A stretch of 64,000 nucleotides of DNA from Podospora anserina (lineage: Eukaryota): positions 7,502,001-7,566,000 of the forward strand of contig CM030332.1 in NCBI GenBank assembly GCA_017654855.1, written 5' to 3'. A model generated the notes under the pieces. That model had not been told where the DNA came from and ran no database searches. It was given only the letters and a program-made list of their open reading frames with translations. The position numbers and the translations under genes are program-made. How positions within the stretch are numbered: the stretch's first letter is position 1; each line of letters starts with the position of its first letter. This document shows, one piece after another, positions 1 to 46,900 of this stretch.

Positions 1-1230
1 GGTCTTAAAGTACTACCGTACTTACTTTTAAAGAAGTATTTTATACAGTAAAAAGAAGGATTTAACGGTAATAAAGGTTTAGAAAGGAAATTATTATTAT
101 AGAGATTATAAGACCGTAGGCGTTATAGGGAAGAAAATAATAAGGTTATAGATAGTTTATATAAAAAGGTTTTTAAATTATAAATCTAATTAAAGGGTAT
201 ATAATAAAAAATAAAGGAGGAAGGGCTTAAAGGATTTAATAGACGCGGAAGGATTTAACTTATTAAATACCTTTTTATTTTTTTTTAAATTTCTATTAAT
301 TCCCCGGTTTACTTCCCTCCCTAGTTCTTCATTAGTTTTAATTATTATTATTAAAGGAAATAAATACGTTATAGGTCTTCCTTTTAATTATAAAGGGTTT
401 AAATTAAATAACATATCGAATAACTTTTAACGATTAAGTAAAGTAATAACCTCCTTTAGGTTCCGTATTCTTATAATAATAAACTCGCTATTCCTCTTTA
501 AGCTTATAATTACCCGTCCCCCTATTTATAATTACTTAAGATCGCTAATAATATACCTTTCGCCTAATTATATACTTAGTTTTATAGGATAGGAGTAGGT
601 TCCTAAAGTTCCTTAAAAACGAAGGGAGGAAGTCGTTAGGTTACTAATTATAATAGTTCGATAGGGATAGAGGTATACTCTAAAATCCGAAAAGTAAGGG
701 TACTTTTCTCTTTAATTAAGGGAGAATAGATAAAGGGATAGTAGGATTATATCGTTTTCCTTTCTTTTTACTAAACAATATTTTCTTTTTTTTTAGTTTA
801 TAAAGGATTTTTTTCTTATATACGTATTTACCTACTGGTTTATAGTGGTTAAATGCGAAGGGAGGTTTGGTTTAGGGTGCGGCTATAGGCCTGAGAGTAT
901 AAGTAAGGAAGCGGGGCTCTCAGAGGACTCAGGGGTTCAGGGGTTATATATATAAGCGGTCTACTTCGGACATTCTATTTTAAATAGATTATCGACTTTT
1001 ATTCTTTTCTTCGTATTTGGTGCCTTGCACGCGTGCAGGCAATTCTGGCCCTCTGATCAGGCCAATCCGGTGCTTATTATGTGGCCTGCGAGCCCATAGT
1101 GTCTTTTCTTTGTCCTACGTGAAGTGCGGCCTGCGAGCGAGTCACTGTCACGTAGGTGTGTTCATTCTGAGACCTATTGAGGGTATATTTGTGGTGTTGT
1201 GGTTGTTTTGTGTGTTTTCTCACCATTTCA
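1..1230 (+). mobile_element. Gypsy family A copy 1, 3' end only (3' accessory region, PPT, 3' LTR); inserted into copy 0
   Basis: 1-867 matches the 3' internal region of complete copy 2 (~27920-28785); PPT GAAGGGAGGTT precedes LTR TGGTTT...CACCATTTCA. Confidence 0.92.
868..1230 (+). repeat. Family A 3' LTR (363 bp)
   Basis: TG...CA termini; same sequence at 7421, 17277, 28786, 34828, 40375, 51883. Confidence 0.95.
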
Positions 1231-14960: not shown

Positions 14961-14970
14961 AATTAAATAA

Positions 14971-25560: not shown

Positions 25561-28500
25561 AGTAAAGATTATTATATTAAATTTTTAATTTTTTCTTTTT
25601 TTTTTCTTATTATTTTTTTTTCCGATTTACTCCTCTCTTTATACCCCTTCCTCTAATTTAAGGAAGTAAAAGATTATTTTTTTTCTTTTTTTTTCTCCTT
25701 TTTTTTATTTATTTATTATTTTTTAAATTCTTTATATTTAGTCCGCTATTCTTCCTACTTTTAATCCTAATCGACTTTTTTATTATTAAAAATTAAATTT
25801 ATAGTATTATAATTTAACTTTAATAACCTACTATTATTAAAATCCTTAAAATAAAAGCTATTTTTATTAATATTAAATTATAAATAATAAATATTTTTAT
25901 ATTAATAATTTTTATATTTTTAATCGAAATCCTTTTTTTCTATATAACTAAAGTATAATTATATTACTTTAATTTTAATCTTATCGAAAAATATTACGAA
26001 AAACCGGTAATAACTTTAATTATATTTATTATATAAATTAATATAATTAAATCTAATATATTAATATTAAACTAAATCTAATTAGGGGGGCGATATTTAT
26101 AATAATTTAATAATTTAAATAAATAAGTTTTTAAAACGATAAACCTATTTAATAATTTCGAAAATTTAATACCCGAAAAATTATTTATTAAACCGTTTAA
26201 CGAAAATCCGTTTAACAAAACCGGTCGATAACGTTTTAAAAATATAATTAATAATAGTTTTATCTATACTAATATCCTTAAAAAGTAATTATTACTCTTT
26301 TTTACCCCCCTTCTTTATTAAATTAAGGAGGAACTATTTAAAGTAAAGGGAAGTAATTATATATTTAAGATTTAAAAAAAAAATTTTAAAATATTAAAAA
26401 ATAGTTTAATAGGGGAGAGAAATATTATAATAAATATTAATATTTTTAAATATAATAGAATTATAAATATAAATAAAATATTAAATTTAAATATATTTTT
26501 TATAAGTAATACTTTAATTATTAAGAATACGGGTAAAATTAATAGGATAATAAGTAAGGGTAGTAAGTAAAGGCTTTTAAATAAAGTTTATAGTAACTTT
26601 AAATTAATTATACGTAATAAAGTTAAAAACTTTTTTAATTTAATTAAAAAGTTTTTTAATAAAAAAGGTTATAAATATTTAAGTAGTAAGGTCGTTAATT
26701 GTTTAATCGAATAAAGTAATAAATTTCTTTAAAGAAAAGGTTATTAGGAAAAAATAATTAATAAATATTAAAAAAAATAAAAAGTAAACGGGAATAAAGA
26801 AAATTAGTATAGGTATTTATAATTAGAGGATAGGACGGTACGATTGGTCTTATAAACCTCTATAGGAGGGAGATTTATTAAAACGTTTTTTCCTTTTTAA
26901 ACGGTTTACGTAATTATTTAATAATTTTACTTTATAAACTAAGTAAATAATAGAGAATAAAGATTTACCGAAGACTTTTTTTTTTTTTTAACTTTTTATT
27001 TTAAAAAAAAAAAAAAATTCTTTACTTCCCTTTCGATAACCCTTTAATTATAGATTATACTATATATTATTCCCTCTTAATTTTTATAAAATAATATTAT
27101 TAATGTTTTTTATAAAGTTTATTTATAATATATTATAAAAAAAATTTACTGTTATTAAAAAATTCGGCCCTTTTAATAATCTCGTTAAAAAAATTATTCG
27201 AAAAACGCGCCTTTAAAATATTAATAAAATTTATAATTTTAATCCTCCGTATAATATTTTTTTTTTTTAAAATAATAATATTTTTTAGCTTATTCGTTTT
27301 AACTTTAATTTAATTACCGACCTAGAAAATTATATTATAGAAAAGCAGTTTAACTAAATTAATATTACTTTCGTAAAGTAATTTTCGATTAATATTATTA
27401 AATATTTTTTTTTTAATTTAAAAATAATAATCCTCCTTAATCGAATTTATATTTACGGTATTTATATAGTTTCCTTTATTTATATTATATATAACCTTTA
27501 AAGTTAATTAAAAATTAAATAATAATTTATTAACTCGGTCCTTACCTATATTTTTTAATATTTTTTTTAGGAAATCCTTAAGCGTTATATATAGATTTTT
27601 AAAAAGCCTTTAAACCCTATTATAATAAAGTTATCGATATATTTTTTTTTATTTAATAATAATTATAATACTTTTAACCGATAATATTAAGTCCTTTTTA
27701 TTTATATTAATAACGGAAATTATTAAGTAATAAATATTTATAACGTTACTATTAGTATTTTAATTTATATAGATTTGTTAAAAAATTAAAAAAAGTATTA
27801 AATTAATACTATTTTTTATTTAATATTTTATATTCGTTACGCTTTTTACTATAATTTTAATATAAAAATAAAAAAATTAATTTATAGTAAATAGGGCGGG
27901 GCGTAAGAATATAGTTTTTAGGTTTTAAAGTATTACTATATTTACTTTTAAAAAGGTATTTCGTATAGTAAAGAAAAGGATTTAACGGTAATAAAAATTT
28001 AAAAAAAAATCGTTACTATAGAGATTATAAAACTGTAGGTATTACGGGGAAAAAAATAATAAAGTTATAAATAATTTATATAAAAAGGTTTTTAAGTTAT
28101 AAACCTAATTAAAAAGTATATAATAAGAAATAAAGAAGGAAGGGCCTAAAGGATTTAATAAACGCGGAAGGATTTAATTTACTAAATACCCTCTCGTTTC
28201 CTTTTAAGTTTTTATTAATTTCCTAATTTACTTCCCTCTTTAATTTTTTATTAACTTTAATTATTACTATTAAAAAAAAAAAATATATTGTAAATTTTCC
28301 CTTTAATTATAAAAGGTTTAAATTAAATAATATATCGAATAACTTTTAACGATTAAATAAAATAATAACCCCTTTTAGGTTCTATACTCCTATAATAATA
28401 GACTCGCCGCTCCTCTCTAGGCCTATAATTACTTATCCCCTTACTTATAATTACTTAAAATCGTTAATAATATACTTTTCGTTTAATTATATATTTAGTT

Positions 28501-29152
28501 TTATAAGATAAAAGTAAGTTCCTAAAGTTCTTTAAAAATAAAGGGAGGAGGTCGTTAAGTTACTAATTATAATAGCTCGATAGGGATAAAAGTATACTTT
28601 AAGATCCGAAAAGTAAAGGTATTTTTCTTTTTAATTAAGGAAAAATAAATAAAAGAATAGTAAAATTATATTATTTTCCCTTTTTTTTACTAAATAATAT
28701 TTTTTTTTTTTTTAATTTATAAAAGATTTTTTTTTATATATATATTTACTTACTAATTTATAGTAATTAAATATAAAGGGAGGTTTAATTTAGGGTACGG
28801 CTATAGGCTTAAAAGTATAAATAAGGAAGCGGGGCTCTTAAAGGACTTAAGGGTTTAGGGGTTATATATATAAGCGGTCTACTTCGGACATTTTATTTTA
28901 AATAGGAAATCGACTTTTATTCTTTTCTTCGTATTTTATACCTTACACGCGTATAGGTAATTCTGGCCCTTTAATTAAGCTAATCCGGTGCTTATTATAT
29001 AGCCTGCGAGCCTATAGTGTTTTTTTTTTATCCTACTTAAAGTGCGGCCTGCGAGCGAGTTACTGTCACGCAGGTGTGTTTATTTTGAGACCTATTGAGG
29101 GTATATTTGTAGTGTTGTGGTTATTTTGTGTGTTTTCTCACCATTTTACTAC

Positions 29153-32100
29153 CAATAGTGGCACTAGGCTATTTCTATACAATTCAGGGCCCTTGGAATA
29201 CCTAAATTTCTGGAAAATCCTAATTCGGTAAACGCCCGGCTTTCCGACCTACAGAAGGCAGCCCTGCTATTAACCCTCAGAAATACACTAAAGGAAGGCC
29301 CGTTATCCACTATAGCCTTCGAAACCGACCCCGTTGTGGCCTATAAGCGCCTTCGCTCACAGTACGCTCCGGCGCAGCCTACCCTCCGAGACGAGCTATA
29401 TAAGGCCTACCACCACTTGCAGTTCGATAGGTCTATACCTATCGTGGATTTCAACGCCCAATTTAACACCTACGTAAGTAGGCTCGGGGCCTTAGGCGTT
29501 AAAATAGCCCAAATCGACCAACTAAACTACTATTTTAATGTACTGGAAAACCATTTTCCACAGTAGGCCGAGCGCTATAAAGGCCTACTTCGGCAGGAGC
29601 AATGGCTCTACCATACAGAAGGCAAGCCTACTAGGCTAAGCCTTTTGTATTTCCAGGAAGACCTTTTAGCCGAAACCCGTAATTCGGCTACTTCCACTGC
29701 CCACCAATTACAGGCCCTATAGGCTACCTACAAGCCTATTAGTAGCGAAAAGAAGCCTAACTTTTAGGCTTCTCAAGCTCACCGGTCCTCACCAAATAAG
29801 GACCAAAAGCCCTATAAAAAACAGGGCAATAAGCAGTGGAAGAAAGGCCTGAAAAAGGACGACCGCTATAACGACCGCTATAACAGCCGCAAAGACGGCC
29901 GTAAGGACAGTCGCAAAGACAACCGCAAGGACCAAAAGGACCTACCCGCTACCGAGGCTTTTACTATAAGCTACGACCTTAACTTAGGCACTATATTTAG
30001 AAGTAATATAACTAAAGAATATAGCGACCTAGGGCCTGATCCTCCCGAAGAACTGGCTAAATTTAGCTACTCAACCGCTACACCACGTACCCAGTGGCTC
30101 TTCGATATAGGCTCTACAATACATATCTGCAACAATAAAGCCTTATTTACCAACCTACAGTTCTCTTCTTCCCTGGGCTATATTAGTACAGGCGGTAGCC
30201 CAGTCAAGCCGCAAGGCAAAGGCACTATAAAAGTTGAATTCTTCAGTGGTTTTGAGGGCAAAAAAGCGGTATATACTACTGTAGCCCTTAAAGAGACCCT
30301 CTATATTCCAGACTTTCCACTGAATATAGTTAGTGGTCACAGGCTCTACGCCTCCGGTAGGACCCTTCTTAAGGACCGCCTATATTCGGCTTCTAGGAAG
30401 CTACTGGCCCTCCTTAACTTTAAGAAAAATAGGTTCTTTTTTACTACCAAAACCACGGTTCCAGCTAAAATAGAGCATTTAACGCTATAAGCATACGGCT
30501 CTATTTAGTGCTACAGCACTAAAGACAGCGATTCAGACCCTGAATCAACTACCATTACGCCTGAATTTCCAGCTACTACAGCGCTTACCACAGCGCTTAC
30601 CACAGTGCCTACCACAGCGCCTACCACAGCGCTTACCACAGCGCCTACCACAGCGCCTACCACAGTGCCTACCACAGCGCCTACCACAGCGCCTATCACA
30701 GCGCCTAAACCAATTACCACTACGGCGCCTACCCCTCGCCGTATAGGGCATTCGCCCTACCAATATAACCAAGCATTGATTCAGGCTACAAGACTCTAGC
30801 ACGTTCGATTAAGTTATATAGGCCTAAACCTTCTAAAGAAAACTGCCCTAATTACTAAGGGCATACCCAATTTACAGAAGGTACAGCCTACAGATCTAAC
30901 CTATAAAAGCTATGACGCAGCTAAATTACTGCGTAAACCTTCTAAAAGGCCTGTAACGGACCCACCGTATACGCTGAGTCGAATAGAAGGGGATATATTT
31001 ATGATTCGACCCACCCCACTGAACAGCAGGCCTTACGGGCTTATTTTAGTGGACCGTAAGACCCGGTACAGGCTTGTTAGGCTCCTAAAAACTAAGGACG
31101 AAGTCGCTATAGAGGCTCGCTCCGCTATAGAGAGCTTATATAATACTTATAAGCGGTACCCGGCACAATTCCACTACGACGGGGGCAAGGAAATTCGAAG
31201 GCTACTGCCCTACCTTACTAAAAAAAGTATAACCTTTAATGAGTCTAGCCCATACGCCCACCACTAAAACGGCCTAGCCGAGCGCTCTATTCGGGTAATT
31301 TTAGAGCGTCTACGAGCCACTATAGTAGCCTCTAGCCTACCACTTACCCTCTAGTACTACGTAATTAGCTCTATTATGGATATTATTAACCGTACAGCTA
31401 CTTCCACTAAGGAATTTACGCCCCACCAGTTATTTTTTAACGAATTAGTGCCTTTATAGGCCCCTCACGTTCCTAACCTCGGACCTTATAGGGCTATAGG
31501 CGCTGAAGTTCTAGTACTTACACCGCTTAAAAAACGTATTACTGTAAGGAAGTTAGAGCCTAAAGTTATTAAAAGTAAGCTTCTAGCCGTACTAGGCAAT
31601 AATACTTACTTAATGTAGCTAAGCTACCGGCAAGTAATCTAAACGCTATTCGTTAAACTATACGAAGATTATAAGCCTTATTTAAAAGGACCTATAGCCT
31701 CCACATCGCAACTAAAGCTTCTAGAACTGGAAGATATCGAGCTTTCAGAAGGGGAACCCCTATAATCACAGAAGGGGCACTTACTGCAACAGTACCTCCT
31801 AGGCCTATACTTATAGTAATAGCACCTCTAAAGCTTACTAATATCGAAGTACTACTTCCGCAGGCCACTAAGTTACAAAAGGAGGAATTCGAAGTAGTAG
31901 ATAACGATACTATAGATACCACTGCTCTAGTATATTATTTTATTAACCAGGCTGCTACGGCTGTTACCTACAGCACTGCTTCTATTAGCACAGAACCTAG
32001 GACCTTTAAACAGGCCCTAAAGCACCCACTAAAGGACCAGTAGCTACAGGCCTCCTTCAGTAAACTACAGCAGCTACTAAATTCCAAAACCTTCTACTTC

Positions 32101-32599
32101 ATCAACCGCTCTCAGGCTCCAAAAAGGCCTATTACTAGCCGATAGGTCTATAAAGCTAAAAAGGACTTACAGGGCTAAATTATTAAATTTAAAGCCCGGC
32201 TAGTAATTAGAGGCTTCTAACAGGTACCCGGAACCGATTTCACGGAGACCTTTGCAGCCACTACGGCACCACCTACCTAGCGGGTTTTACTAGCTATTAT
32301 AGCTAAAGAAGACCTAGAAATTAAGCAAATTAATTTCGTTAGGGCCTTTCTTAACGCTAGTGTAGACTCCGATATATATATAGAAGTCCCTAAAGGCCTA
32401 TACGAATATAGCCTTAGTAGCCAAACCGCTATAGACCTTCTGAAACAACATTGCTAGGACCCTTCGAAGGACCAAGTTATAGTACTAAAAAGGTCCCTAT
32501 ACGGCCTAACAAAGGCCTTACCAGCACCCAAGTTCCAGCGCTTTTTAGAGCTAATAAACTACCGGAAGCCTAGTACTTATAAAGGCCCTACGGCCTAGT
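29153..32599 (+). pseudogene. Copia B gag-pol (continuation after A insertion), RIP stops and internal RT/RNase H deletion
   Basis: QWLFD.GS..HICN protease ~30092; WHVRLGH ~30797; integrase YDGGKE / ESSPYAHHQNGLAER; RT FKARLV.RGF.Q; ORF-track 29336 and 31001 ORFs are fragments of it. Confidence 0.9.
30577..30732 (+). repeat. 12-bp coding minisatellite (ACCACAGCGCCT; TTAP units) in Copia B pol
   Basis: About 11 tandem units between protease and pre-integrase. Confidence 0.93.
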
Positions 32600-32630
32600 A
32601 AGTGGGCACCTAGCACTCCCATAGAAGGGG

Positions 32631-33249
32631 TGTTAATGTGTGGGTATTACTAAGTGCCCTACTTACTGCCCTACAGATTAATATTACAGTGGGCAGTACT
32701 ACTATAAACAGTAATGGAACTTCCCGGCTTGGATCCCTTTAAAATATTCTTTACAAGGGACCCTTAAAGGCTTACAGGGCTACTGTGGCCTGAGGCTTAG
32801 TTAATGGATACTAAAACCTTCCAAAGTAGCTACAGGCTTACGTAGTAAGTTACCACAATAGTGTGATTTACAGGGCACCTCTGCTGCCGAAGGTTCTATA
32901 GATTTCCGTGAGTCTACACTAGACCCACCTAAGCCCACCAAATACCCCAAAGTGGTATAGGGGCTTCCAGGGCCTACAGGACCCACAGTAGGCTTACGAA
33001 GGCCTATATATAAACCTCTCCTCTCTCCTGTAAAATAGTTTTCTTTCTTTCCTCAAGGGCAAAAGCTTAAGGCTAAGGCCAAGGGTAATAAAGGTAATTC
33101 TTATTCTTTATACCTCACTGTATTACAGTGCTTTACCTTCCTTCGGCACTGCCGTCGTATCCTCCCGCTTCCGCTTGCGCACTGCTATATTTTACAGCAA
33201 CCCTATATAGGTTCTATATTATAGGCCTATCAGGGCTTACCAGCTAACA
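32631..33249 (+). repeat. Copia B 3' LTR (619 bp)
   Basis: TG...CA, preceded by PPT. Confidence 0.95.
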
Positions 33250-35186
33250 ATATTAATAACGGAAATTATTAAATAATAAATATTTATAATAATATTATTA
33301 ATATTTTAATTTATATAAATTTATCGAAAGATTAAAAAAAATATTAAATTAATGTTATTTTTTATTTAGTATTTTATATTCGTTATACTTTTTACTATAA
33401 CTTTAACGTAAAAGTAAGGAAATTAGTTTACGGTAAATAAAGTAAAGTATAGGAATATAGTTTTTAAGTTTTAAAGTATTACCGTATTTATTTTTAGAAA
33501 GGTATTTTGTATAGTAAAAAGAAGGATTTAACGGTAATAAAAGTTTAAAAAGGAGATTATTATTATAAAGATTATAAGACTATAAGCGTTATAAAGAAAA
33601 AAATAATAAAATTATAAATAATTTATATAAAAAAGTTTTTAAATTATAAATTTAATTAGAGGGTACGTAATAAAAAATAAAAGAGGAAGGGCCTAAAGGA
33701 CTTAATAAACGCGGAAGGATTTAATTTATTAAATACCCTCTCGTTTCCTTTTAAATCTCTACTAATTCCCCGGTTTACTTTCTTCCTTAATTTTTTATTA
33801 ACTTTAATTATTATTATTAAAAAAAAATATATATTATAAGTTTTTCTTTTAATTATAAAGGATTTAAATTAAATAATATATCGAATAATTTTTAATAATT
33901 AAATAAAGTAATAACCCCCTTTAAATTCTATATTTCTATAATAATAAACTCCCCGCTCCTCTTTAGGCTTATAATTACCCGTTTTCCTATTTATAATTAC
34001 TTAAAATTATTAATAATATACTTTTTATTTAATTATATACCTAGTTTTATAAAATAAGAGTAAGCTCCTAAAGTATAACGAACCCCTATATAGAACCTCT
34101 GAAAGGGATACAGGTTAAAGGTAACTTCTAATAATTAGTTCGGTGTAGCTAAACAGTGCACAACAAGATATCTCGATGTAAACACAAGATGCCGTGAATA
34201 TAAGCTTAAATTACATACTGCGGAACTATCTATCTACACCAGCCAGTTCCTCCGTATATATAGACCTTGGGGCCGTGAGGTGCTCGCCCTGCTATAGCCC
34301 CGATCACTCCTAGCACATTGCATCCTGCATTGTGCTCGTCGTGCTATACCTCTGATCACTCCTAGCACATTGCATCTGCATTGTGCTCGTCGTGCTATGC
34401 CTCTAATCATCCCTAGCATCTTGCATCCTGCAGACTGCTCGTGAGCCTTGGCGCCATAGCACTTTTGCCTAGCCCTGATCGGCTTGTTCCCTGACTTCCT
34501 GAATGATTGGCTAGGGGCGACCTGCGCCCCACATGTGGCGCGACCTGCCGTTGGGTTAACTGTGACATAAAGTTCCTTAAAAATAAAAGGAAAAGGTCGT
34601 TAAGTTACCGGTTATAATAATTCGATAGGGACAAAAATATACTTTAAAATCCGAAAAGTAAAGGTACTCTTCTCCCTAATTAAGGGAGAATAGATAAAAG
34701 GATAATAGGATTATATTATTTTCTTTTTTTTTATTAAATAATTTTTTTTTTTTTAATTTATAAAGGATTTTTTTTTTATATATATATTTATTTATTAATT
34801 TATAGTAGTTAAATGTAAAAGGAGGTTTAGTTTAGGGTGCGGCTACTTCTCTAAAAATATAAGTAAGGAAGCGGGGCTCTCAAAAGACTTAGGGGTTTAA
34901 GGGTTATATATATAAGCGGTCTACTTCGGACATTCTATTTTAGAGAAATCATCCACTTTTATTTCTTTATATTTTGTGCTCTGCACGCGTGCAGGCAATC
35001 CTGGCCTTCTGATTAGGCTAACCCGGTGCTTATTATATAGCCTGCGAGCCTATAGTATCTTTTATCTGTCCTAAGTAAAGTGCGGCCTGCAAGCGAGTTA
35101 CTGTTACGCAGGCGTGTCCATTTAGGGACCTGTTGAGAGTATATTTGTGGTGTTGTAGTTAGTTTATGTGTTTTCTTACCATTTTA
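33250..35186 (+). mobile_element. Family A host copy, 3' part with variant 3' LTR (34828-35186), interrupted by solo LTR F
   Basis: Matches copy 2 from ~27704 onward; LTR ends ACCATTTTA at 35186. Confidence 0.9.
34074..34567 (-). mobile_element. Solo LTR F (D-family R-U5, distinct U3 with ~52-bp tandem repeats)
   Basis: Perfect 5-bp TSD TAAAG on both sides; left ~190 bp match D/E R-U5. Confidence 0.93.
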
Positions 35187-35342
35187 ATAGTAGCCCTGTA
35201 AGCCTTTAAAGGTCCCTTGTAAAGAATATTCTAAAGGGATCTAAGCCGGGAAGTTCTACTATTGTTTATACTAGTGCTGCCCACTGTAATATTAATTTGT
35301 AGGGCAGTAAGTAAGGCACTTAGTAGTACCTATATATTAATA
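35187..35342 (-). repeat. 5' part of another Copia B LTR, interrupted by the family A host copy
   Basis: Reverse complement of the first ~156 bp of LTR-B. Confidence 0.9.
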
Positions 35343-35447
35343 TTAATAAATAAGCTAGCTTTTTTTAGAGCCGTTAAAATATTACGAACGTAATTTAAAT
35401 ATTTTTTTTTTATATAGCTATAAATAAGGATATTATTTAGGTATACG
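35343..35447 (-). pseudogene. Gypsy H reverse transcriptase fragment (YLDDILIYS region)
   Basis: Continues 59357-59771 across the ATACG TSD of element E. Confidence 0.8.
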
Positions 35448-35854
35448 TGTGACGAACCCCTATATAGAACCTCTAAAAGGGATACGGGTTAAAGGTAACT
35501 TCTAATAATTAGTTCGGTTCAGCTAAATAGTGCATAACAAGATATCTCGATATAAATATAAAATGCCGTAAATATAAATTTAAATTGCATATTGCGGAAC
35601 TATTTATCTATACTAGCCAGTTCCTCCGTATATATAGTTTTTATACTAAGCCGTAATTAGTCTCCTAAGGCTATTAATTACCTCGGTTTAGTTTGCTTAG
35701 TGCCTTAATTATACTAATTACCTTTGCTTAGTCTACTTAGTACTCTAATTACACTAATTACTTTGCTTTTACTATAATTAACTTCCCTATACGTTCTCCC
35801 GATTAGCCCTTTATTCCCGTAGCCCTATAACCGTCCTATACTAAGGTTATAATA
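35448..35854 (-). repeat. Gypsy E 3' LTR (407 bp)
   Basis: Matches 58990-59356 plus one extra ~40-bp unit. Confidence 0.92.
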
Positions 35855-35957
35855 CGATATTCCCCCTCTTAGGTTAACGCCCCGATAACTTAGCTCGCTT
35901 ATCTCTCCTATCGATAACCTTAAGTAAATTTTCCTCCCTTATTACTATCCTTCTATA

Positions 35958-36554
35958 ATATTTAACCGCGTTAAGAAATTTACGCCGAAAGGTCCCTCGA
36001 GTACCCTTCGCCGTTAGAATTTTATAGCTATTACCTTTATTTTCGGTAACGAAATACTTCCCTATTCTTCTTACGAGGCCCTTAATATCTCCGATTACCG
36101 CACTTCTAAACGCTCCTCTAAATATAATTACTATATATATTCCGGTCGCTCCGACTGCGATATCCTAGGCCTTACTCTTGCGTTAATAGCCTCCTTACGT
36201 CGCTAAAAAGAAAAACTAAACGCCGACGAATAATAGGCTCGTACGGCTATACTATAGGCTACTTCGAAACTCTTGTAAGTAAATACCTAACGCCGTACTT
36301 TAATTATTAAATTCCGTCGTTTAGCCGCTTACAAGGAGCGGGTAATTAAGGATTTAAAGCGGGAAAAAGTATAGGTTTCTTTCGCCGCTAATCTTCCTTT
36401 AACCTTTTCCCTTAACTAAACTTCCGATATACTAGACTAGCTTAGTTAGTCCTTACCGGATAACTTATCTCTTAATCCTAGCGTAGCCGGTTTTTCCTTC
36501 TTTACTACTTAAAATACCGTTAATAATACGCCTTCCCCTTTTTAAAATAATTAA
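35958..36554 (+). pseudogene. Antisense accessory gene of E: six-Cys Zn-cluster-like domain, coiled coil, acidic tail; end approximate
   Basis: De-RIP MSNRVKK...EMLPCSSCEALNISDCRTSKRSSKCNYCVHSGRSDCD (last Cys still TGC at 36156), then LRRQKEKLDADEQQAR. Confidence 0.7.
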
Positions 36555-36899
36555 AGTATATAATATTATTTATATTTAATTCCCTTTATACTTTTTAATT
36601 TTATAGTATAATATATAATATATCGATTATTATATTAAAAACGTAAATTCGATTTTTATTAAAGTTCTCGAATCTCTATATTATTATTATTTAACGGTAA
36701 TCTAAGGACTTATTTTTTTTATTTAAGTTTTAGTCGGTTTAAATATCATTAATAAAAAAATTTTTATTTATTTAAATAAATAAAATTTGTTTTTAATTTT
36801 TATAAATTATTTATAATTAAATATTTTAATTAATTAATTAAATATTTTAATTATTTTTTATTAAACTATAAATTTAATATTTCTTTTATATTATATTTT

Positions 36900-37534
36900 T
36901 ATTAATGTGTGGGTACTACTAAGTGCCCTACTTACTGCCCTACAGATTGATATTACAGTGGGCAGTACTGCTATAAGCAGTAATGGAACTTCCCGGCTTA
37001 GATCCCTTTAGAATGTTCTTTACAAGGGACCCTTAAAGGCTTACAGGGCTACTGTGGCTTGAGGCTTAGTTAATGGATATTAGAACTTTCCAAAGTGGCT
37101 ACAGGCTTACGTAGTAAGTTACCACAATAGTGTGATTTACAGGGCACCTCTGCTGCCGAAGGTTCTATGGATTTCCGTAAGTCTACACTAGACCCACCTA
37201 AGCCCACCAAATACCCCAAAGTGGTATAGGGGCTTCTAGGGCCTACAGGACCCACAGTAGGCCTACGAAGGCCTATATATAGACCTCTCCTCTCTCCTAT
37301 AGAATAGTTCCTTTCTTTCTTTCCTTAAGGGCAAAAGCTTAAGGCTAAGGCCAAAGGCCAAGGCCAAGGGTAATAAAGGCAATTCTTATTCCTTATACCT
37401 CACTGTATTACAGTGCTTTACCTTCCTTCGGCACTGCCGTCGTATCCTCCAGCTTCCGCTTGCGCACTGCTGTATTTTACAGCAACCCTGTATAGGTTCT
37501 ATATTATAGGCCTATCAGGGCTTACCAGCTAACA
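36900..37534 (+). mobile_element. Copia B solo LTR inside E, no TSD
   Basis: Full LTR-B; flanks ATTTT / ATATT; adjacent E integrase sequence missing. Confidence 0.92.
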
Positions 37535-40500
37535 ATATTATTATATTTAATGCTAATTACTATATTTTTTAATTTTAATAATTTAATAATAAAGTTTATT
37601 ATAATTAAATTTCATAATTATTTTACTATTAATAATAACTTTAGAAATTTATAAAGTTTATATTTCGTAACCTTTATTTTTTTATACGTATAGTATAACT
37701 AAATAGCTTCCTTAATATTATTTTTAATTTTTAATTAATTAAAATATTATTTAATTTTTTCTATAGTTTTAACGATATTTATATACCCTCCGAACTTTAA
37801 CCTATAGATCTCTATTACTAATACCGTCCTATTATTTAATATTATATACGTTCGATTTTTATACTATAGTCTTCCCTAATTATTTTTTTAAATACTTTAT
37901 AGCTTTAGCTTTTCCTATTAATATTATTTTATAATATTATTATTTAATTTCCTTTAATATTTATTAAAAATAGTTTTCTCGTAATATATTATATAATACA
38001 TTATTTACGGCTATAATAGATATTTAAGGGTATTATCTAGTGCCTTCTCGAGTAATAGTAGTAATTCCCTAGGTATATCCTTATAATAGTCGGCTCGCCG
38101 GTTAAGTACGTTTACCTTAACGTTCTCCGAACCCTTCTTATAATTAATTTAAAAATTAAATTTTAAAAGAAATTTTAATTATTATATTTATTATACGTTA
38201 AGGACCTTTATAATAATAAAATATTATAGATTTTTATAATTTATATAGATTTATATTTCGTAATTAATATTATTAAAGTATAACCTTTATTCCTTAAATA
38301 TTTCGATAATAGTGAGTAGCTTTTTATTATAAATTAAGTAATTTTAACGTATTTCTTTTAATTTCTTTAAAAAGAAAACTATTAAATATAACTTCCCGTT
38401 ATTATTTTACTATTTTAATTACCTATTAATCGTATAGTTTAATATATTAGCTTTAACTTCGAACGGTCGATTAAAGTTTAATAATTTAAATACTAAATCC
38501 TTTAAAATAACCTTTTTTAGTTCCTAAAAAACCTACTCTTTTTCCTACCTTTACCGGAACTCCACGTCTTTCTTAATTAAATAATTAAATAATTATACGA
38601 TTCCTATATACTTATAAATAAATATTTAATAAAAATTTAGAAATTTTAAAAATTCTTTAATATATATTTATAATTATAATATAAACTAATCTTTAATTAT
38701 TATAATCTTTTTAAATTCTATACGAACTTTATTTAATAATATTAAATATTTTAAATATATTATTTTTTATATATAAAGCTTATTTTTTTTATTAATTAAA
38801 AATCTAATTCCGTATAACGCGTTAAGTATCTTTTATATATATCGCTTATATTCCTTTAAAATATATAAATAAATAAAAACATTATTAAAATAATATATTA
38901 TTATTTTATCGAGGTACTTCCGGATTATATAATTAACGAGAGATTAAAACGTTACGGGCGTATTAATTAATTTAAATAGTATTATAAGATACTTAAAATA
39001 ATTATAGGATATACGAAACGTTATTTTTTATTTATTTCCTTTTTTAATCCGTATATAGGTATACCCAATAAATATATTTAAATATATAAAGTATCGCGCT
39101 TTAATTAATTAACTCCGTAATTTAAATATTAATAATAATAAATAATTATGTTTTACCGTTTTATTATTTAATTAACGGTAGTCTATATATAATTATAAAT
39201 TACTATTTTTTTTTAATACGAAGAATATAAAGTATTTTATTAGTAATATAAACTTTTTAATATATCCTTTCTTTAAATTCTTATTTAAGTATTTCCGTAA
39301 TTCTTTATTTTACTTATCATTAATATAATAAACCTTAAATAACCGTAATTTAACTCCTTTTTTTAATTTAATTTTATAGTTTTATAGTCTTTACTTTAAA
39401 AACCCCTCTAAATATTTAGCCGTAAAGGCTAGGTATCCTCGATATTCCACCGGTACTATTTTTTTTTACTTTTCTTTATATTATTATAATAAACGTACTT
39501 ATTAATTTCCGATATCTTTATTAATATTATTAACTTTATTTCTTTAATCTTACCACCTATATCAATAAAATATACTATTATTTTTTAAGTTCTTTACGGT
39601 AGTACCGTGGAGGGTACTTGTCCTACACTCTACTCTATATATACTTTTAATTTCTTATCGTTAATTAAATATTTTTAAAGTTTTTTTTAGTCGTAAATAA
39701 TTATTATCCCTCTAATCGATATTTAAATTATAATTTTTATACTATAATTACTTTAGGATTATATCCTTCGAAAGTCCTATATTTATAATATTAAATATAA
39801 TTAAAATTATTTTTCTTTTAACTATAATATTTAAAAGTGTTAAAATACAGCACTTATTTGTGGATTTTACAGTATGTTCTTTCTCGTGGCTTACAGCACT
39901 CAAAGGCTTCAAGCCACAGCGCCTATAACGCCCATAGCGGTTATAAGGAACTATAAAGTTTTTATATAAATTATTGTGGCTAACTGAACCGGTAGAAGTT
40001 ATGGGGATTAATAAGGAGGAAAAAGAGGTTTTGGATGCCTATAAAAGGCTCCCCTCCTAGTGTATTTGGAATAATCCTTTTCTTTCTTAAGTTTAAGTCA
40101 AACAGTTAAAATCAATATACTGGTTTACTATACTTTTGTAGGGCATAGTTCCCTATATTTACCTTCCTTCGGTACTACCTTATACTATCGTACCTCGCAA
40201 TCCAAAAACCCTAGAGTCTTTAGGTAATTGCTTCCGACTTACCTAGAAGGCATATAATTAGCTTACCGATAATATATTTTAATAAATTATAAGCCCGGAC
40301 TTATATTTAAATTCTAGCGAGTTCCTTTATTCTACGTTCCTATAGCGGTTTCTTACCGTAAGCCCTGTTTTTATTAAAATGGTAAGAAAACACACAAAAC
40401 AACCACAACACCACAAATATACCCTTAACAGGTCTCAGAATAAACATACCTACGTGACAGTGACTCGCTCGCAGGCCGCACTTTACGTAGGACAAAGAAA

Positions 40501-40823
40501 AGACACTATGGGCTCGCAGGCCACATAATAAGCACCGGATTGGCCTGATTAGAGGGCCAGAATTGCCTGCACGCGTGCAAGGCACAAAATACAAAGAAAA
40601 GAATAAAAGTCGATGTCCTCTCTAAATAGAATGTCCGAAGCAGACCGCTTATATATATAACCCCTGAACCCCTAAGTCCTCTAAGAGCCCCGCTTCCTTA
40701 CTTATACTCTTAAGCCTATAACCGTACCCTAAACCAAACCTCCCTTCGCATTTAACCACTATAAATTAATAGGCAAATATATATATAAGAAAAAAATCTT
40801 TTATAAATAAAAAAAAAAAAAAA

Positions 40824-42458
40824 ATATCGTTTAGTAAAAAAAAGGGAAAACGATATAATCCTACTATCCCTTTATTTATTCTCCTTTAATTAAAGAGAAA
40901 AATACTTTTACTTTTCGGATTTTAAAATATACTTCTGTCCTTATCGAGTTATTATAATTAGTAACCTAACGACCTCCTCCCTTTATTTTTAAAGAACTTT
41001 AAGAGCCTACTCTTATTCTATAAAACTAAGTATATAATTAGGCGAAAAGTATATTATTAGCGATTTTAAGTGGTTATAAGTAGGGGGACGAGTAATTATA
41101 GGCCTAAAAAGGAGCAGCGAGTTTATTATTATAGGAGTATAGAACTTAAAGAGGGTTACTACCTTATTTAATCGTTAAAAGTTATTCGATACGCTACTTA
41201 GTTTAAACCCTTTATAATTAAAGGGAAGACCTACGACGTATTTATTTCCTTTAATAGTAATAATTAAAGTTAATAGAGAACTAGGGAGGGAAGTAAACCG
41301 AGGAATTAATAGAAATTTAAAAGGAAATAAAAAGGTGTTTAGTAGGTTAAATCCTTTCGCGTTTATTAAATCCTTTAGGCCCCTCCTCCTTTATTTTTTA
41401 TTATATACCCTCTAATTAAGCTTATAACCTAAAAACCTTTTTATATAAGCTATCTATAACTTTATTATTTTCTTTCCCGTAACGCTTACGGTCTTATAGT
41501 CTCTATAGTAATAATCTTCTCTCTAAGCCTTTACTACCGTTAAATCCTCCTTTTTACTATACGAAATACCTCTCTAAAAGTAAGTACGGTAATACTTTAA
41601 AACCTAAAAACTATATTCCTACGCCCCGCCCTATTTACTATAGGCTAGCCTCCTTACTTTTACGTTAAAACTATAATAAAAAGCGTAACGGATATAAAAT
41701 ACTAAATAAAAAATAGTATTAGCTTAATACCCCTTCCAATCCTTTAACGAATCTATATAAACCAAAATACTAATAATAACGTCGTAAATACTTATTACCT
41801 AATAGCTTCCGTTATTAATATAAATAAGGAGGACTTAATATTATCGGTTAAAAGTATTATAATTATTATTAAGTAAAAAAAAGCGTATCGATAACTTTAT
41901 TATAATAGGGTTTAGAGGCTTTTTAGGGATCTATATATAACGCTCGAGGATTTCTTAAAGAAAATACCGAAAAATATAAGTAAGGACCGAACTAATAAAT
42001 TACTACTTAGCCTCTAATTAACCTTAAAGGTTATATATAACGTAAGTAAAAAAAGTTATATAAATATTATAAATATAAATCCGATTAAAGGGGGTTATTA
42101 TTTTTAAATTAAAAAAAAAATATTTAATAATATTAATCGAAAACTATTTTATAAAAATAATATTAATTTAGTCGAGCCGCCTTCCTATAATATAATCTCC
42201 TAGGTCGGTAATTAAGTTAAGGTTAAAACGAATAAACTAAAGAGTATTATCGCTTTAAAAAAAGAAAATACCGCGCGGGGGACTAAAACTATAGACCTTA
42301 TCGATACTTTAAAGGTGTATTTTCCGAATAATCTCTTTAACGAGATTATTAGGAGGGCCGAATTTCTTAATAGTAGTAAATTCTTTCTATAATATATTAT
42401 AAATGGACTTTATAAAAAGCGTTAATAATATTATTTTATAAGAATTAAGAGGGAGTAA
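40824..42458 (+). pseudogene. Putative antisense ORF X1 of family A (~540 codons, unknown product)
   Basis: One frame reads protein-like throughout after RIP reversal (e.g. KTVDLIDTLKARFPNDLFNEIVGRAEFLD); stops are TAA/TAG only, which RIP makes weakly informative. Confidence 0.45.
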
Positions 42459-42774
42459 TATATAATGTAATCTGTGATTAAAGGATTATCGAAAGGGAAA
42501 TAAAGAATTTTTTTTTAGAATAGAGAGTTAAAGAGGGAAAAAGATTTTTGGTAAATCTTTATTCTTTATTATCTACTTAACTTATAAAATAAGATTATTA
42601 AATAGTTACGTAAGCCGTTTAAGGAGGAAAGAGCGCTTTAATAAGTTTCCCTCCTATAGAAGTCTATAGGACTAGTCGCACCGTTCTATCCTTTAATTAT
42701 AAATACCTATATTAATTTTCTTTATTTTTATTTACTCTTTATTTTTTTTAATATTTATTAATCGCTTCCTCTTA

Positions 42775-43806
42775 ATAGCCTCTTTTTTAAAAAAACCTAC
42801 TACTTTATTTAATTAAACGGTCAACGACTTTATTATTTAAGTATTTACAACCTTTTTCGTTAAAAAACTTCTTAGTTAGGTCGAGGGAGTTCTTAACTTT
42901 ATTACGTACGATTAGTCCGAAGTCGTTATAAACTTTACTTAAAAACCTTTATTTACTACCCTTACTTATTATCCTACCGACCTTACCTATATTCCTAATA
43001 ATTAAAGTATTACTTATAAAAGGTACGTCTAGGTTCGGCGTCCTACTTACGTTTATAACTTTATTATACCTAAAGGTATTAATATTTATTACGATATTTC
43101 TTTTCCCTATTAAGTTACTCTTTAATACTTTAAAATTTCCCCTTTAAATCTTAAATACGTAGCTACTCCCCTTTACTTTAAATAGTTCTTCCTTAATTTA
43201 ACGAAAAAGGGGGGTAAAAAAGAGTAGTAATTATTTTTTAAGGATATTAGTGCGGATAAAACTATTATTAATTATATCTTTAAAGTATTATTAACCGGTT
43301 CCGTTAAACGGATTTTCGTTAAACGGTTTAATAAGTAATTTTTCGGGCGCTAGCTCTTTAAAATCGTTAAACAGGTTTATTACTTTAAAAGTTTATTTAT
43401 TTAGGCTACTAGATTATTATAAGTACCGCCCCCCTAATTAAATTTAATTTAATATTAATATATTAGATTTAGTTATATTAATTTATATAATAAATACGAT
43501 TAAAACTATCGCTAATTTTTCGTAACGTTTCCCGATAGGACTAAAACTAAGGTAATATAGTTATATTTCGGTTATATAGGAAGAGAGGACCTCGATTAGA
43601 AATACGGGAATTACTAGTATAAGGATATTTATTACTTATAGTCTAGTGTTAATAAGGATAGCCCTTACTTTAAGGATCTTAATAGTAGTAGATTATCGAA
43701 GTTAAATCGTAGTACCGTAAGCTTAATTCCTAATAATAAGGAAGTCGATTAGGATTAAAAGTAGGAAGAATAGCGGGCTAAGTATAAAGAGTTTAAAAAA
43801 TAGTAA
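42775..43806 (+). pseudogene. Putative antisense ORF X2 of family A (~340 codons, unknown product)
   Basis: Single frame from (M)ASF.EEP to ..EVDWDWKWEEWRAKYEEF; flanked by low-complexity spacers. Confidence 0.5.
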
Positions 43807-43959
43807 ATAAATAAAAAAAAGGAGAAAAAAAAAGAAAAAAAATAGTTTTTTATTTTTTTAAATTAGAGGAAGGGGTATAAAGAGAGGAGTAAATTAGAAA
43901 AAAAAATAATAGGAAAAGAAAAAAAAAAAATTAAAAATTTAATATAATAATCTTTACTT

Positions 43960-46900
43960 TAATTAATTACCTCCCTTAATATCTTTCCTCCCTTTAAGAA
44001 TAGATAATTCTTATAGCTCTATTTTTATAATATAAACTTTAGTACCCTTTTAAAGAAAAATAATAATTATAATACTTTTATTATCGTTTCCCCCTAATTA
44101 CCTAAGAAGTCCTTTAGTTTACCTTTTTTTAGGATTACCTTTATACTTTTGCCCTTCTTAAATTTCTTTTATACTTTAATATTCTTCCGTTCTATTTAAG
44201 TCTTCCCCCTAATTATTATTCTCCCTAGTATTTCTTTTACTATCTCTTTTTCTTTATCCTTATTTTCTACTATATCTATACCTTCCTTTACTCCATTCCT
44301 AAATACCTATTTAACTCTCTTTAGTCTTAGCTACATATCCGTATCCTCTTTATTTATATATACGTTTTTTAACCTAAAAAATTTTTTTACTTTATTTAAC
44401 ATATAAGAAGCTCGTAATAGTACCCTATCCAGTATCTTTAGGAAATAATAAATATTACTTAGTTCGACCTTCTTTACTTTAAAAGGGCCGTCCTAATAGT
44501 ACTATAGTTTCCTTACTACACTTATATCTAACTTTCTATCTATTTTATATACTAATACTAAGTCCCCCCTTTTAATTATATTATTTTTAGGCCTAATATT
44601 ATAAATCCCTTTTCTGTTTTTTTTTATTACGGCTTTTTATTTTACTATACTAACCTTCTTAGCCACTAAAGTTAGATTTATTTTTTAGGATTTTAATAGT
44701 CTCGCCCTTACCTTTATTAAATTTATAATCGCTCTTTTTTTTTAATATCTCCTTAATTTATCAAAACTAATTTTTTCTTATTAAACGACTCTCTATAACG
44801 GTACGTCCTTTTCGATTAGCGTAATAAGGTTAAATTTATATATTAAATAAAAAATATTATATTTATAAATACTTTATATTATAGTCCTATTAATAAATAA
44901 TATATAAGGGAGCTATTACTTTTACTTTTTCCCCGTCCTATCCGTTATTTTTATTAGTATTAATATAATTAGGATATAACTAAATTCCGTTACTCTATTT
45001 ACTTTTACGTTATAAAGTAAAACTACTATCCGAAAAACTCCTAGCTTCTTTAAAATTTTAATAACTTCCTTCCTAAATTTTAATCCGCTATTTACTATTA
45101 CGATTAAAGGGTAACCCTATTTAAGGATAATATTATATAAAATAAAGTTTTTAACCCTAAAAACTTTATTTAAATTTAAAACTTTCGTTTTTAAATATTT
45201 AATTAAATTATCCCTTACTTTTAAAAAGTAAATTTTTTTTTCCGAAGTTATTAGTAAAAACTAAACGTTTAAATATTATTTTATAAATAAAGTAACTAAA
45301 AGCTTAATATATAAATATTAATCCTTTTAACGCTTCGGGCTCTATTATTAATATTATTTATATATTTTAATCTAAACCTCGATATTAGCGTATATACCCT
45401 TCTAATAATAGTTTTTTATTATTCGGGTATAAGTAGCTTCCCGTCCTTTATAACCTATCTCGTTATAATATATATTAAAGACTTTTTCCCGTTTAATTAG
45501 AGGATTAATAATTTTTTTAGGGGGAAAGCTTTCTTTATTTAGTTTAAGAAATAAAATTCTATTTTCGAGAATTATTTTTAGAGTATTATTCTTAATGGTC
45601 TGAACGTTAAACTTCGTTTTAGCCTTTAGTTCCGTACTAGTCGCGAGGAACTCGGTAATAATATAAGAGTAAGGAGACTATAGTTTATTTAAATAGGGGC
45701 TTTACTTAATAACTTTCTTTTTTTTTTTTTTAATATTTACCCGCTAAATACTTATTTCTTAAATATCGTTTTTCTAGATCTTTACGTTAACCTTATTATT
45801 AATATCTAGCTCTAACTCCTTTTCCCTTAAATTAAAGGGGTTAAGTGGTTTTCTCGATAGTACATTTACTATAAGGTTCTTACTTTTAAAAATATAAATA
45901 ATTATAAAGTTAAAAAATCTAATCTATCCTAACTATCTTATTATTAAAGCGCCGGGAACGTTACTAGCCGCCCTTTAGACTTAATAGATTACCACTTAAA
46001 CGTCCGTTTCCACCGTAAAATATACCCCGAAAAGATACTTTCTAAATCTCTTTAAAGTATATAATAGTCCTCTTAACTCCCTCTTAATAGTATTATACTT
46101 TTATTTAGCCGGGCTTTAAATACTACTCTTAAACCGATAAGGGTACCGTTTTTTATTAGGTTTTACTTATTTAATTACCGTTCCTTACCCCGTTAAATTT
46201 ATATTAAAAATAATAAAGATTTTACCGAAACGATCGTTATTAAATATTAAAGAAGTTAAATATAGTACCTTTATAATTAAAAAAGTAAATTACTCTATTA
46301 TACTTTATTAAGCTTCCGTCTATTCTTATTTCGTATCCTTCCTTATTAAAAAATATAGCGGAACTGCAATTAAATTAAAGAGAGGTACCTATAGCCGATA
46401 GTAGCCGGTAATCCCTAAAAAAGTATAAATATCCTTAAAACTATAGTAAGTTCGCTATTCCTTTATCTTTACTATCTTTATTTAATTAAGGAAGCGCCCG
46501 TCCGGTATATAGGAATAGCTAAGGATAATAGCTTCCCGTTTATACTAAAGGGATTTTACGGCTATAATTATAATTCCTATAAGCTTACAGTTAAATAAAA
46601 CTACATTAATATTCTTTAAATACTTTAGGACTTACTTTTTAATTCCTAACCTTTCTTTTTTACTATTATAATCCTACCTTAGCCCTTTTACTATAATATC
46701 GTTTAGGTATAGCCGATATACTTATAGGATAAGATTTTAAAAAACTTTAGTTACGGCTCTTTAGAATTAGGCCACTAAGTTAGTAGCTCCTTAAGGTAGG
46801 GTATATATCCTAAATAGGCCGATAAATATCGCGAAGGTAGTAAGGTCTCGGTTCGTTAGGGCTAATTTAATTTAGTTATATCTAGAAAAGAAATTAAGTA

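What the first reader, a model, noticed from the sequence alone, without database searches (positions are those of the whole stretch)
40745..43900. Family A has a ~3.1-kb post-integrase region with two probable antisense ORFs
Seen: between the end of pol and the PPT, both complete copies keep ~3.1 kb (parts also at 1-867 and 33250-34827). In copy 3 one antisense frame reads protein-like for ~540 codons (40824-42458, with a Trp-rich stretch and a hydrophobic segment) and another for ~340 codons (42775-43806). I recognise no domain. Inference: unknown cargo genes in a Ylt1-like element. RIP blurs stop codons, and part of the sense frame also looks coil-like, so the strand is not certain.
Basis: partly seen in the sequence, partly recalled or inferred. 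Interest (0 to 1): 0.7.

Follow-up and report, generated by a model that had tools for sequence, protein, structure and literature searches.

The report
Retrotransposon carrying SUMO-type protease gene
A fungal jumping gene carries two extra, back-to-back genes, a SUMO-type protease and a six-cysteine protein, plus a short DNA word repeated along its length, which may be a kit for keeping itself switched on.

Summary
The region is a RIP-wrecked copy of a real two-gene cargo in an 11.9-kb Ty3/Gypsy element of a Podospora genome (probably grenouille). Four low-RIP copies in the same genome show the genes directly. ORF1 (40908-42431) lies on the same strand as pol and encodes a Ulp1/C48-family cysteine protease (His-Asp-Cys and Gln kept; fold matches Ulp1/SENP/NEDP1). 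ORF2 (42775-43845) is antisense, has one 54-nt intron and encodes a ~338-residue DUF3716-like six-cysteine protein. A distant intact element (RT 62%, cargo 25-28% identical, no DNA similarity) has the same layout and intron position. A pol-less locus carries the same gene pair. The palindrome CTGATCAG recurs 39 times in the low-RIP copy (about 6 expected) and 76 times in the pol-less locus. Best mechanism (inferred, about 45%): the DUF3716 protein reads this word and the protease strips SUMO-like marks from the element's chromatin, like plant VANC/Kaonashi anti-silencing. Activity, substrate, binding and expression are not shown. This scan had already reported the same system on other copies in this genome; I found no description in print.

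The parts
40374..40736 (-). 3' LTR of copy 3 (363 bp; TG...CA ends, 4-bp target duplication)
40739..40747 (-). polypurine tract
40908..42431 (-). RIP-killed gene for a Ulp1/C48-like protease, same strand as pol (507 aa from the likely start; a public annotation starts at 42598, 562 aa)
   Evidence: open in low-RIP copy L028
41613..41804 (-). catalytic core: His (41804), Asp (41783), oxyanion Gln (41633), Cys (41615); here His>Tyr, Gln>stop, Cys>Tyr by RIP
41010..41081 (-). conserved C-terminal motif of the protease family after a long Ser/Pro-rich linker
   Evidence: found in 11 of 31 relatives
42432..42774 (.). 343-bp spacer from which both genes diverge; TATA-like TATAAATA at 42698; inferred two-way internal promoter
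   Evidence: promoter function is inference
42775..43418 (+). exon 1 of the antisense DUF3716-like gene (start ATG mutated by RIP in this copy)
   Evidence: (P0006)
43419..43472 (+). 54-nt phase-2 intron (GTAAGT donor, CTAAC branch, AG acceptor in low-RIP copies)
   Evidence: kept in 4 of 4 low-RIP copies; same codon position and phase in L072; intron-less homologues in L071 align gap-free across it
43473..43845 (+). exon 2 with the six-cysteine DUF3716-like motif and a charged helical tail
44067..45400 (-). 3' end of pol (integrase, GPF/Y motif, acidic tail, no chromodomain); converges on the antisense gene
40886..43866 (.). 11 former sites of the CTGATCAG-like word (40886, 41034, 41214, 41412, 42081, 42474, 42638, 42809, 43193, 43434, 43859), all erased by RIP in this copy
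27094..28616 (+). copy 2: RIP-killed protease gene
25674..26744 (-). copy 2: RIP-killed antisense DUF3716-like gene (intron 26047-26100)
1..697 (+). 3' part of the protease gene of a copy that begins before the window
33250..34661 (+). 3' part of the protease gene in a truncated copy, split by an insertion at 34075-34567

Best explanation
SHOWN (about 95% sure): the stretch is the dead copy of a conserved accessory module of a Ty3/Gypsy lineage in Sordariomycete fungi. It has a sense-strand gene for a Ulp1/C48 (clan CE) cysteine protease and an antisense, one-intron gene for a DUF3716-type six-cysteine protein, placed back to back between integrase and the 3' LTR, and intact copies carry a dispersed palindromic word (CTGATCAG and one-letter variants) about every 240-300 bases. 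INFERRED: both genes are read from the shared 343-bp spacer, independently of the 5' LTR; the intron survives reverse transcription because it is antisense in the genomic RNA. INFERRED (about 45%): the DUF3716 protein binds zinc and recognises the word along the element, and the protease removes SUMO (or another ubiquitin-like tag) from chromatin or silencing proteins there, so the element keeps itself transcribed: a self-targeted anti-silencing kit that works like plant VANC/Kaonashi proteins without being homologous to them. RIP destroys both genes and the word.
For: Genes: 4 full-length low-RIP copies (GC 0.51) among 30 fetched. Protease: 31 relatives at 22-56% identity; Pfam C48 at E<=0.05 in 24 of 31, over the cut-off in 15 of 31; His, Trp, Asp invariant in 25 of 25 aligned rows, Cys in 21 of 25; profile hits yeast Ulp1 at 3e-13; model pLDDT 77.8, Foldseek best yeast Ulp1 6e-7, Z 14.9 NEDP1 (rmsd 3.6, 198 aligned), 14.5 SENP3/5, 14.3 Ulp1; 4 of 4 strain differences inside the 507-codon frame are synonymous. 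Antisense gene: 28% over 347 residues to L072 (E 2e-29) and E 3e-10 to two L071 genes that pass the DUF3716 cut-off; intron conserved in place and phase. Layout: L072/L073 (one element, 99.9% alike) has gag-PR, RT-RH-IN, antisense gene and protease in the same order with no DNA similarity in the cargo. Pairing recurs in pol-less L071. Word: 39 sites against about 6 in dinucleotide shuffles; above all 200 synonymous-codon shuffles in gag, two pol frames and the protease gene; the same word is the top 8-mer in L071, 76 sites confined to 2-18 kb; 0 of 14 control stretches exceed their shuffles. Precedent: VANC proteins bind element-specific motifs and remove silencing (PMC5735166, abstract); some carry a Ulp1 domain (PMC13317346, passages).
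Against: No activity, substrate, DNA binding or chromatin effect was measured. The fold ties between SUMO and NEDD8 proteases, and 3 of 25 aligned relatives have Ser and 1 a gap at the catalytic Cys. The Podospora proteins themselves stay below both Pfam cut-offs (C48 17.8 of 20.7 bits; DUF3716 9.9 of 22). The word is weak in L072 (16 sites, 6.0+-2.8 shuffled; pol 12 of 200 and protease gene 87 of 200 shuffles as high), absent from exon 2 of the antisense gene, and was chosen after looking at the data; spacing is loose (median gap 241, CV 0.57). 26 of 30 fetched copies are RIPped, so the kit does not stop RIP. The LTR context is shown fully for only one distant element and partly for one more; the third has no pol. 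At least 8 host DUF3716 genes exist, so the word could be read by a host protein.
Confidence: 0.45

Rival explanations
1. Accessory genes of the replication cycle, not of silencing: the DUF3716 protein is a transactivator of the element's own promoters through the word, and the protease acts on Gag, integrase, repair factors or nuclear-pore proteins to ease integration.
For: Six-cysteine pattern recalls Zn2Cys6 activators (recalled; one search shows the pattern). Ulp1 or OTU domains sit on Ginger1 transposases, proposed to act in repair during transposition (PMC2836005, passages). Papers on Ty1 and the nuclear pore mention Ulp1 (PMC5909446, search listing only).
Against: The word is spread through coding regions over the whole element rather than gathered at the LTR or spacer. 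The same gene pair and word occur in L071, which has no gag or pol.
Confidence: 0.27
2. The protease-like protein works as a SUMO- or ubiquitin-binding scaffold or decoy, and catalysis is dispensable.
For: Cys replaced by Ser in 3 of 25 aligned relatives and missing in 1; a C-terminal motif is kept in 11 of 31 relatives.
Against: His, Asp, Gln and Cys are all kept in 4 of 4 low-RIP copies and Cys in 21 of 25 rows.
Confidence: 0.12
3. The genes act on the host (development, sexual cycle, defence), like REP9-1 of Zymoseptoria, and the word is an unrelated compositional feature or a host-factor site.
For: REP9-1, a transposon-borne DUF3716 gene, lowers pycnidia formation (PMC8232023, passages); host DUF3716 genes exist.
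Against: The word is confined to elements that carry the gene pair and is flat around the 7 host DUF3716 loci tested.
Confidence: 0.13
4. One reading: two antisense ORFs of unknown kind.
For: One antisense frame over 40824-42458 has few stops (10 in the low-RIP copy).
Against: It is the mirror of the open sense frame and has no match in relatives; the sense frame is a conserved protease.
Confidence: 0.02

Closest known systems
VANC / Kaonashi (KIU) anti-silencing proteins of Arabidopsis VANDAL Mutator-like transposons
   Same: Accessory genes in a mobile element, element-specific short DNA motifs, and in KIU a captured Ulp1 domain (PMC5735166 abstract; PMC13317346 passages).
   Different: Those are plant DNA transposons; motifs lie in non-coding regions and tandem repeats; Ulp1 is fused to VANC. 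Here: a fungal LTR retrotransposon, two separate divergent genes, word written through coding sequence, no VANC-type domain found by Pfam; anti-silencing untested.
Ulp1 domains of Ginger1 and Mutator transposases
   Same: Mobile element carries a C48 protease (PMC2836005 passages).
   Different: There it is in DNA transposons, in Ginger1 fused to the transposase. Here it is a stand-alone gene of a distinct orphan subfamily with its own N-terminal extension and C-terminal motif.
brtn, antisense gene of Boty-like Gypsy elements of Botrytis and Sclerotinia (Zhao et al. 2011)
   Same: Antisense gene between pol and the 3' LTR of a fungal Gypsy element (as cited in PMC7264820 and PMC8365987, passages).
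   Different: No protease partner is mentioned in the passages seen; homology to brtn was not tested (paper and sequence not seen).
REP9-1 and REP9-2 of the REP9 (IS3EU-like) transposon of Zymoseptoria tritici
   Same: DUF3716 genes as transposon cargo, two per element as in L071 (PMC8232023 passages).
   Different: DNA transposon; no Ulp1-like gene or DNA word in the passages seen.
Host Ulp1, Ulp2 and Den1/NEDP1 (MEROPS C48)
   Same: Fold and catalytic residues.
   Different: 12-17% structural identity; the cargo is sister to none of the three host enzymes in an unresolved tree (labels Ulp1/Ulp2/Den1 given from recalled motifs).
grenouille, Ty3/Gypsy family of Podospora
   Same: Only non-crapaud Gypsy family abundant enough (over 400 kb in the table part read) to hold 26 full-length matches; one LTR type.
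   Different: No sequence comparison with the named family was possible; a preprint calls grenouille chromodomain-carrying, which this element is not.

Membership tests
Ty3/Gypsy LTR retrotransposon | gag, then PR-RT-RH-IN order | tested here: met
Ty3/Gypsy LTR retrotransposon | LTRs with TG...CA ends, target duplication, PPT | tested here: met
   (363-bp LTRs, 4-bp duplication in a low-RIP copy and in copy 3)
Ylt1-like clade | RT/integrase tree groups with Ylt1 | not tested
   no Ylt1 sequence came from a tool; clade defined by phylogeny in PMC2864245 (passages)
Ylt1-like clade | no chromodomain after integrase | tested here: met
   Pfam finds none in the pol end
crapaud | chromodomain; about 7.3 kb (800 bp of LTRs = 11%) | tested here: not met
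   against 11.87 kb and no chromodomain
grenouille | second most abundant Gypsy family, uniform LTR | tested here: inconclusive
   fits by elimination; chromodomain remark conflicts
grenouille | 80/80 identity to the library sequence | not testable with these tools
   library not held
Peptidase C48 (Ulp1/SENP) | His-Asp-Cys triad and oxyanion Gln in order | tested here: met
   (4 of 4 low-RIP copies; 0 of 25 RIPped copies that cover the site)
Peptidase C48 (Ulp1/SENP) | Pfam PF02902 over the cut-off | tested here: inconclusive
   17.8 bits against 20.7 for this protein; over the cut-off in 15 of 31 relatives
Peptidase C48 (Ulp1/SENP) | clan CE fold | tested here: met
   features search 0.96
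SUMO-specific protease (as against NEDD8 or ubiquitin) | cleaves after the SUMO di-glycine | not testable with these tools
   structure hits tie within 1 Z between NEDP1, SENP3/5/7 and Ulp1
DUF3716 (PF12511) | six-cysteine pattern CxxC...C...CxxC...C with aromatic residue before the third Cys | tested here: met
DUF3716 (PF12511) | Pfam score over the cut-off | tested here: inconclusive
   9.9 bits against 22; homologues in L071 score 31.2 and 26.2
VANC/KIU anti-silencing system | protein homologous to VANC | tested here: not met
   no such family in Pfam scans of either protein
VANC/KIU anti-silencing system | element-specific DNA motif in many copies | tested here: met
   but through coding regions, not non-coding tandem repeats
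VANC/KIU anti-silencing system | protein binds the motif and lifts silencing | not testable with these tools
   needs binding and chromatin assays
brtn-type antisense gene | homology to brtn | not tested
   sequence not obtained; position and orientation agree

The most novel reading that the evidence does not exclude
Fungal mobile elements of unrelated kinds share a swappable three-part cassette: a DUF3716 zinc reader, a dedicated Ulp1-like eraser and a palindromic tag written through the element's own genes. It gives each element family sequence-specific immunity from SUMO-dependent heterochromatin silencing, a fungal counterpart of plant VANC evolved independently; this Gypsy lineage would be an LTR-retrotransposon carrier, and the pol-less L071 element a second, unclassified one.
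Probability: 0.35. Interest if true: 0.85.

Novelty: new variant of a known kind. Interest (0 to 1): 0.62.

Why it matters
How transposons stay active against fungal genome defence is an open question, and sequence-specific anti-silencing is well shown only in plant VANDAL elements. A protease, a candidate DNA reader and a candidate target word in one abundant element of a model fungus make it directly testable with purified proteins and chromatin assays. Even without that mechanism, a free-standing Ulp1-like gene kept across a fungal LTR-retrotransposon lineage was not found in print (10 searches), and such proteins are now annotated as ordinary fungal genes.

Tried and rejected
Expression: no RNA holder listed. 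Three runs guessed to be RNA and one of unknown kind were laid on a low-RIP copy; two gave one 11.5-kb contig over the whole element and none showed a splice joint, so they behave like DNA and say nothing on expression. Complex prediction of the protease tail with the L071 DUF3716 protein and catalytic domain: no answer, score 0.00, alignments not used. Single-sequence fold failed (pLDDT 34). Word-index protein searches found only the protein itself. Viral contigs: 3 pattern matches, 0 relatives. Tree of 32 catalytic cores: 13 of 29 inner branches open, long branches meet, one row probably mis-cut; no donor can be named. The branch-point count was off by one base and is replaced; L025 was dropped from the catalytic count because it does not cover the site. 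Atlas search of the 1569-aa L071 protein was blank; no terminal repeats seen there. No Starship captain near the Ulp-like genes at C1:5.83-6.0 Mb. Crapaud rejected. The antisense protein has no predicted structure and no language-model look-alike search. Supplements in old .doc format (PMC2864245, PMC2441463) and those of the preprint were not seen; they may list this element's extra ORFs or its name. Sasaki 2022 was not held.
Full report
Setting. Self-comparison of the window shows an 11.87-kb LTR element on the minus strand at 52244-40374, a second full copy at 17276-29148, and pieces at 1-1228, 1230-7789 and 33250-35189. The finding lies just inside the 3' LTR. It is heavily RIPped: every frame has 89-136 stops. 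The genome holds 45 matches to the region, 26 of them full length. Of the 30 fetched, four (L026-L029) have GC 0.51 and no RIP signature; all four are full-length elements. The window copy differs from L028 at 792 places, 788 of them C>T or G>A. These natural copies let the genes be read as they are. A public protein identical to the longer gene is filed under Podospora anserina. The element has gag with a zinc knuckle, then PR, RT, RH and integrase, and no chromodomain; ends TG...CA with a 4-bp target duplication. It is not crapaud (about 7.3 kb with a chromodomain; PMC10787394, passages). By abundance only grenouille fits (supplement 1 part 1); this name is an inference, and a preprint's remark that grenouille has a chromodomain conflicts with it.

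Gene 1 is on the sense strand. Only that frame matches relatives (E 1e-25 to 8e-12; best antisense E 0.011 over 13 residues). The likely start is 42431 (507 aa); the public model starts at 42598 (562 aa), and both forms are in the collection. In three runs that carry another variant of the element, 4 of 4 differences inside the 507 codons are synonymous and the 1 upstream is not, a small sample. The protein has the C48 motifs with His, Asp, Gln and Cys in order, aligned to yeast Ulp1. Pfam gives E 0.003, below the cut-off. An exhaustive search found 31 relatives; 24 of 31 list C48 at E<=0.05 and 15 pass the cut-off (one list was cut short). In 25 aligned rows His, Trp and Asp are invariant; the Cys is kept in 21, is Ser in 3 and missing in 1. 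The family has its own N-terminal extension and, after a long Ser/Pro-rich linker, a C-terminal motif found in 11 of 31 relatives. The model (pLDDT 77.8) matches yeast Ulp1 best by Foldseek (6e-7); by Z it ties between NEDP1 (14.9; rmsd 3.6; 198 aligned), SENP3/5 (14.5) and Ulp1 (14.3), so the substrate is open. Of 20 relatives looked up, 6 name an organism (Staphylotrichum, Cercophora, Parachaetomium, Cladorrhinum, Sporothrix, Grosmannia; all Sordariomycetes, recalled) and 4 lie on contigs of 11.3-12.2 kb, the size of a collapsed element. All four catalytic residues survive in 4 of 4 low-RIP copies and in 0 of the 25 RIPped copies that cover the site, the window's among them.

Gene 2 is antisense and spliced. 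The product would be 338 residues with six cysteines in exon 2. Splicing is inferred, from conservation: the L072 element has an intron at the same codon and phase, and two intron-less homologues in L071 align across the junction without a gap. Those homologues pass the DUF3716 cut-off (31.2 and 26.2 bits); the Podospora exon alone scores 9.9. The two genes diverge from a 343-bp spacer with a TATA-like word at 42698; a two-way promoter there is an inference.

Conservation of the module. A metagenome scan gave 9 pattern matches, 5 relatives, 4 loci. L072 and L073 are one element (99.9% alike, GC 0.59): gag-PR, RT-RH-IN (RT 62% identical), the antisense gene (28% over 347 residues, E 2e-29) and the protease (25%, E 5e-21) in the same order and orientation, with no DNA similarity in the cargo. 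L074 is a 2.1-kb piece with the protease's 3' end followed by sequence like the start of L072 and of gag. L071 has the protease and two DUF3716 genes diverging from it but no gag or pol. So the pair is older than the Podospora family and not tied to LTR elements.

The DNA word. Earlier notes of this scan on other copies in this genome (e1-7136705, e1-7124770) describe the same two genes and a dispersed palindrome; I tested the latter. An unbiased count gives TCTGATCA/CTGATCAG as top 8-mers in the low-RIP copy and CTGATCAG in L071 (40 against 2.7 expected), and not in host controls. Allowing one mismatch: 39 sites in the low-RIP copy (about 6 in shuffles), 76 in L071 confined to 2-18 kb, 16 in L072 (6.0+-2.8; mostly one-letter variants), 5 in L074 (shuffle maximum 4), and 0 of 14 control stretches above their shuffle maximum. 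Counts beat all 200 synonymous-codon shuffles in gag, both pol frames and the protease gene, L072 gag and the long L071 ORF, and all but 1 in the L071 protease gene, but not in L072 pol (12 of 200), the L072 protease gene (87 of 200) or exon 2 (no site). Spacing is loose (median 241, CV 0.57; L071 median 167, CV 0.64), so I do not confirm a strict nucleosome period. The word holds RIP targets on both strands; all 11 sites in 40745-43900 are erased in the window copy. The word was chosen after seeing the data; its independent top rank in L071 is the main control for that.

How it most likely works. Shown: genes, strands, family assignment, conserved layout, enriched word. Inferred: expression from the spacer, splicing, zinc and DNA binding, proteolysis, and the link between the parts. 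For the first: the word covers the whole body of elements that carry the pair, even one without pol, and plant VANC proteins bind element motifs and lift silencing (PMC5735166, abstract and outline), some with a Ulp1 domain (PMC13317346, passages). That SUMO supports heterochromatin silencing is recalled, not checked for this fungus. Against: nothing functional was measured, 26 of 30 fetched copies were RIPped anyway, the word is weak in L072, and the host has at least 8 DUF3716 genes.

What is known. Each part has precedent: Ulp1 domains in Ginger1 and Mutator transposons (PMC2836005, passages), DUF3716 genes in REP9 (PMC8232023, passages), an antisense gene in Boty elements (cited in PMC7264820 and PMC8365987, passages; original not seen). 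Ten searches and passages of PMC3248453, PMC2864245, PMC6431247, PMC2441463, PMC13547354 and PMC5014426 showed no free-standing Ulp1-like gene in an LTR retrotransposon, nor its pairing with DUF3716. The library lacks most subscription papers and Repbase reports, and some supplements could not be read, so this is not proof of absence; the protein itself is already annotated as a ubiquitin-like protease family member without its element context.

Verdict. A real feature, partly misread at first. New variant of a known kind; interest 0.62. The boldest reading not excluded, a swappable anti-silencing cassette of fungal mobile elements, has about 35% and would merit 0.85.

Noticed in passing
L071:2000-18000: About 16 kb marked by 76 copies of the word with sharp edges (0 in the first 2 kb and last 1.8 kb), holding two intron-less DUF3716 genes, the protease and a 1569-aa orphan ORF, but no pol, transposase hit or terminal repeat: a possible unclassified mobile element.
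   Followed up: partly
G000:C1:5.83-6.00 Mb (L069, L078, L079, L089): Two near-identical extra Ulp-like ORFs 135 kb apart, a DUF3716-like frame resembling the cargo type, and a 237-bp piece of the protease tail with part of an LTR; no DUF3435 gene nearby.
   Followed up: partly
L061 (G000:C7 low-RIP copy): Contigs of 4 of 4 runs disagree with the assembly at the 12 single-base insertion or deletion places listed, so frame breaks in the low-RIP copies are probably assembly errors and more copies may be intact than annotation would show.
   Followed up: partly
L062:2522-2480 (after the 5' LTR): A Met codon of the gag frame follows the 5' LTR at once and the frame is open through the LTR end; no room for a usual primer-binding site was seen.
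   Followed up: no
L072 against L073, antisense gene: The two 99.9% identical contigs differ by three Trp-to-stop changes and one Cys change in the antisense gene.
   Followed up: no
P0017, P0018, P0025: Relatives with Ser in place of the catalytic Cys: possible pseudo-proteases.
   Followed up: no
P0009: A public 1396-aa gene model joins ankyrin repeats, this protease domain and a further domain; it may be an element merged into a host gene model.
   Followed up: no
window 29000-33000: A 4-kb stretch of higher GC (0.43-0.47) with strong strand bias (CA 188 against TG 57) and two open frames, between element copies; its kind was not determined.
   Followed up: no
window 8960-16136, 34049-39838, 56975-60213: At least two other nested repeat families interrupt or flank the copies.
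   Followed up: no
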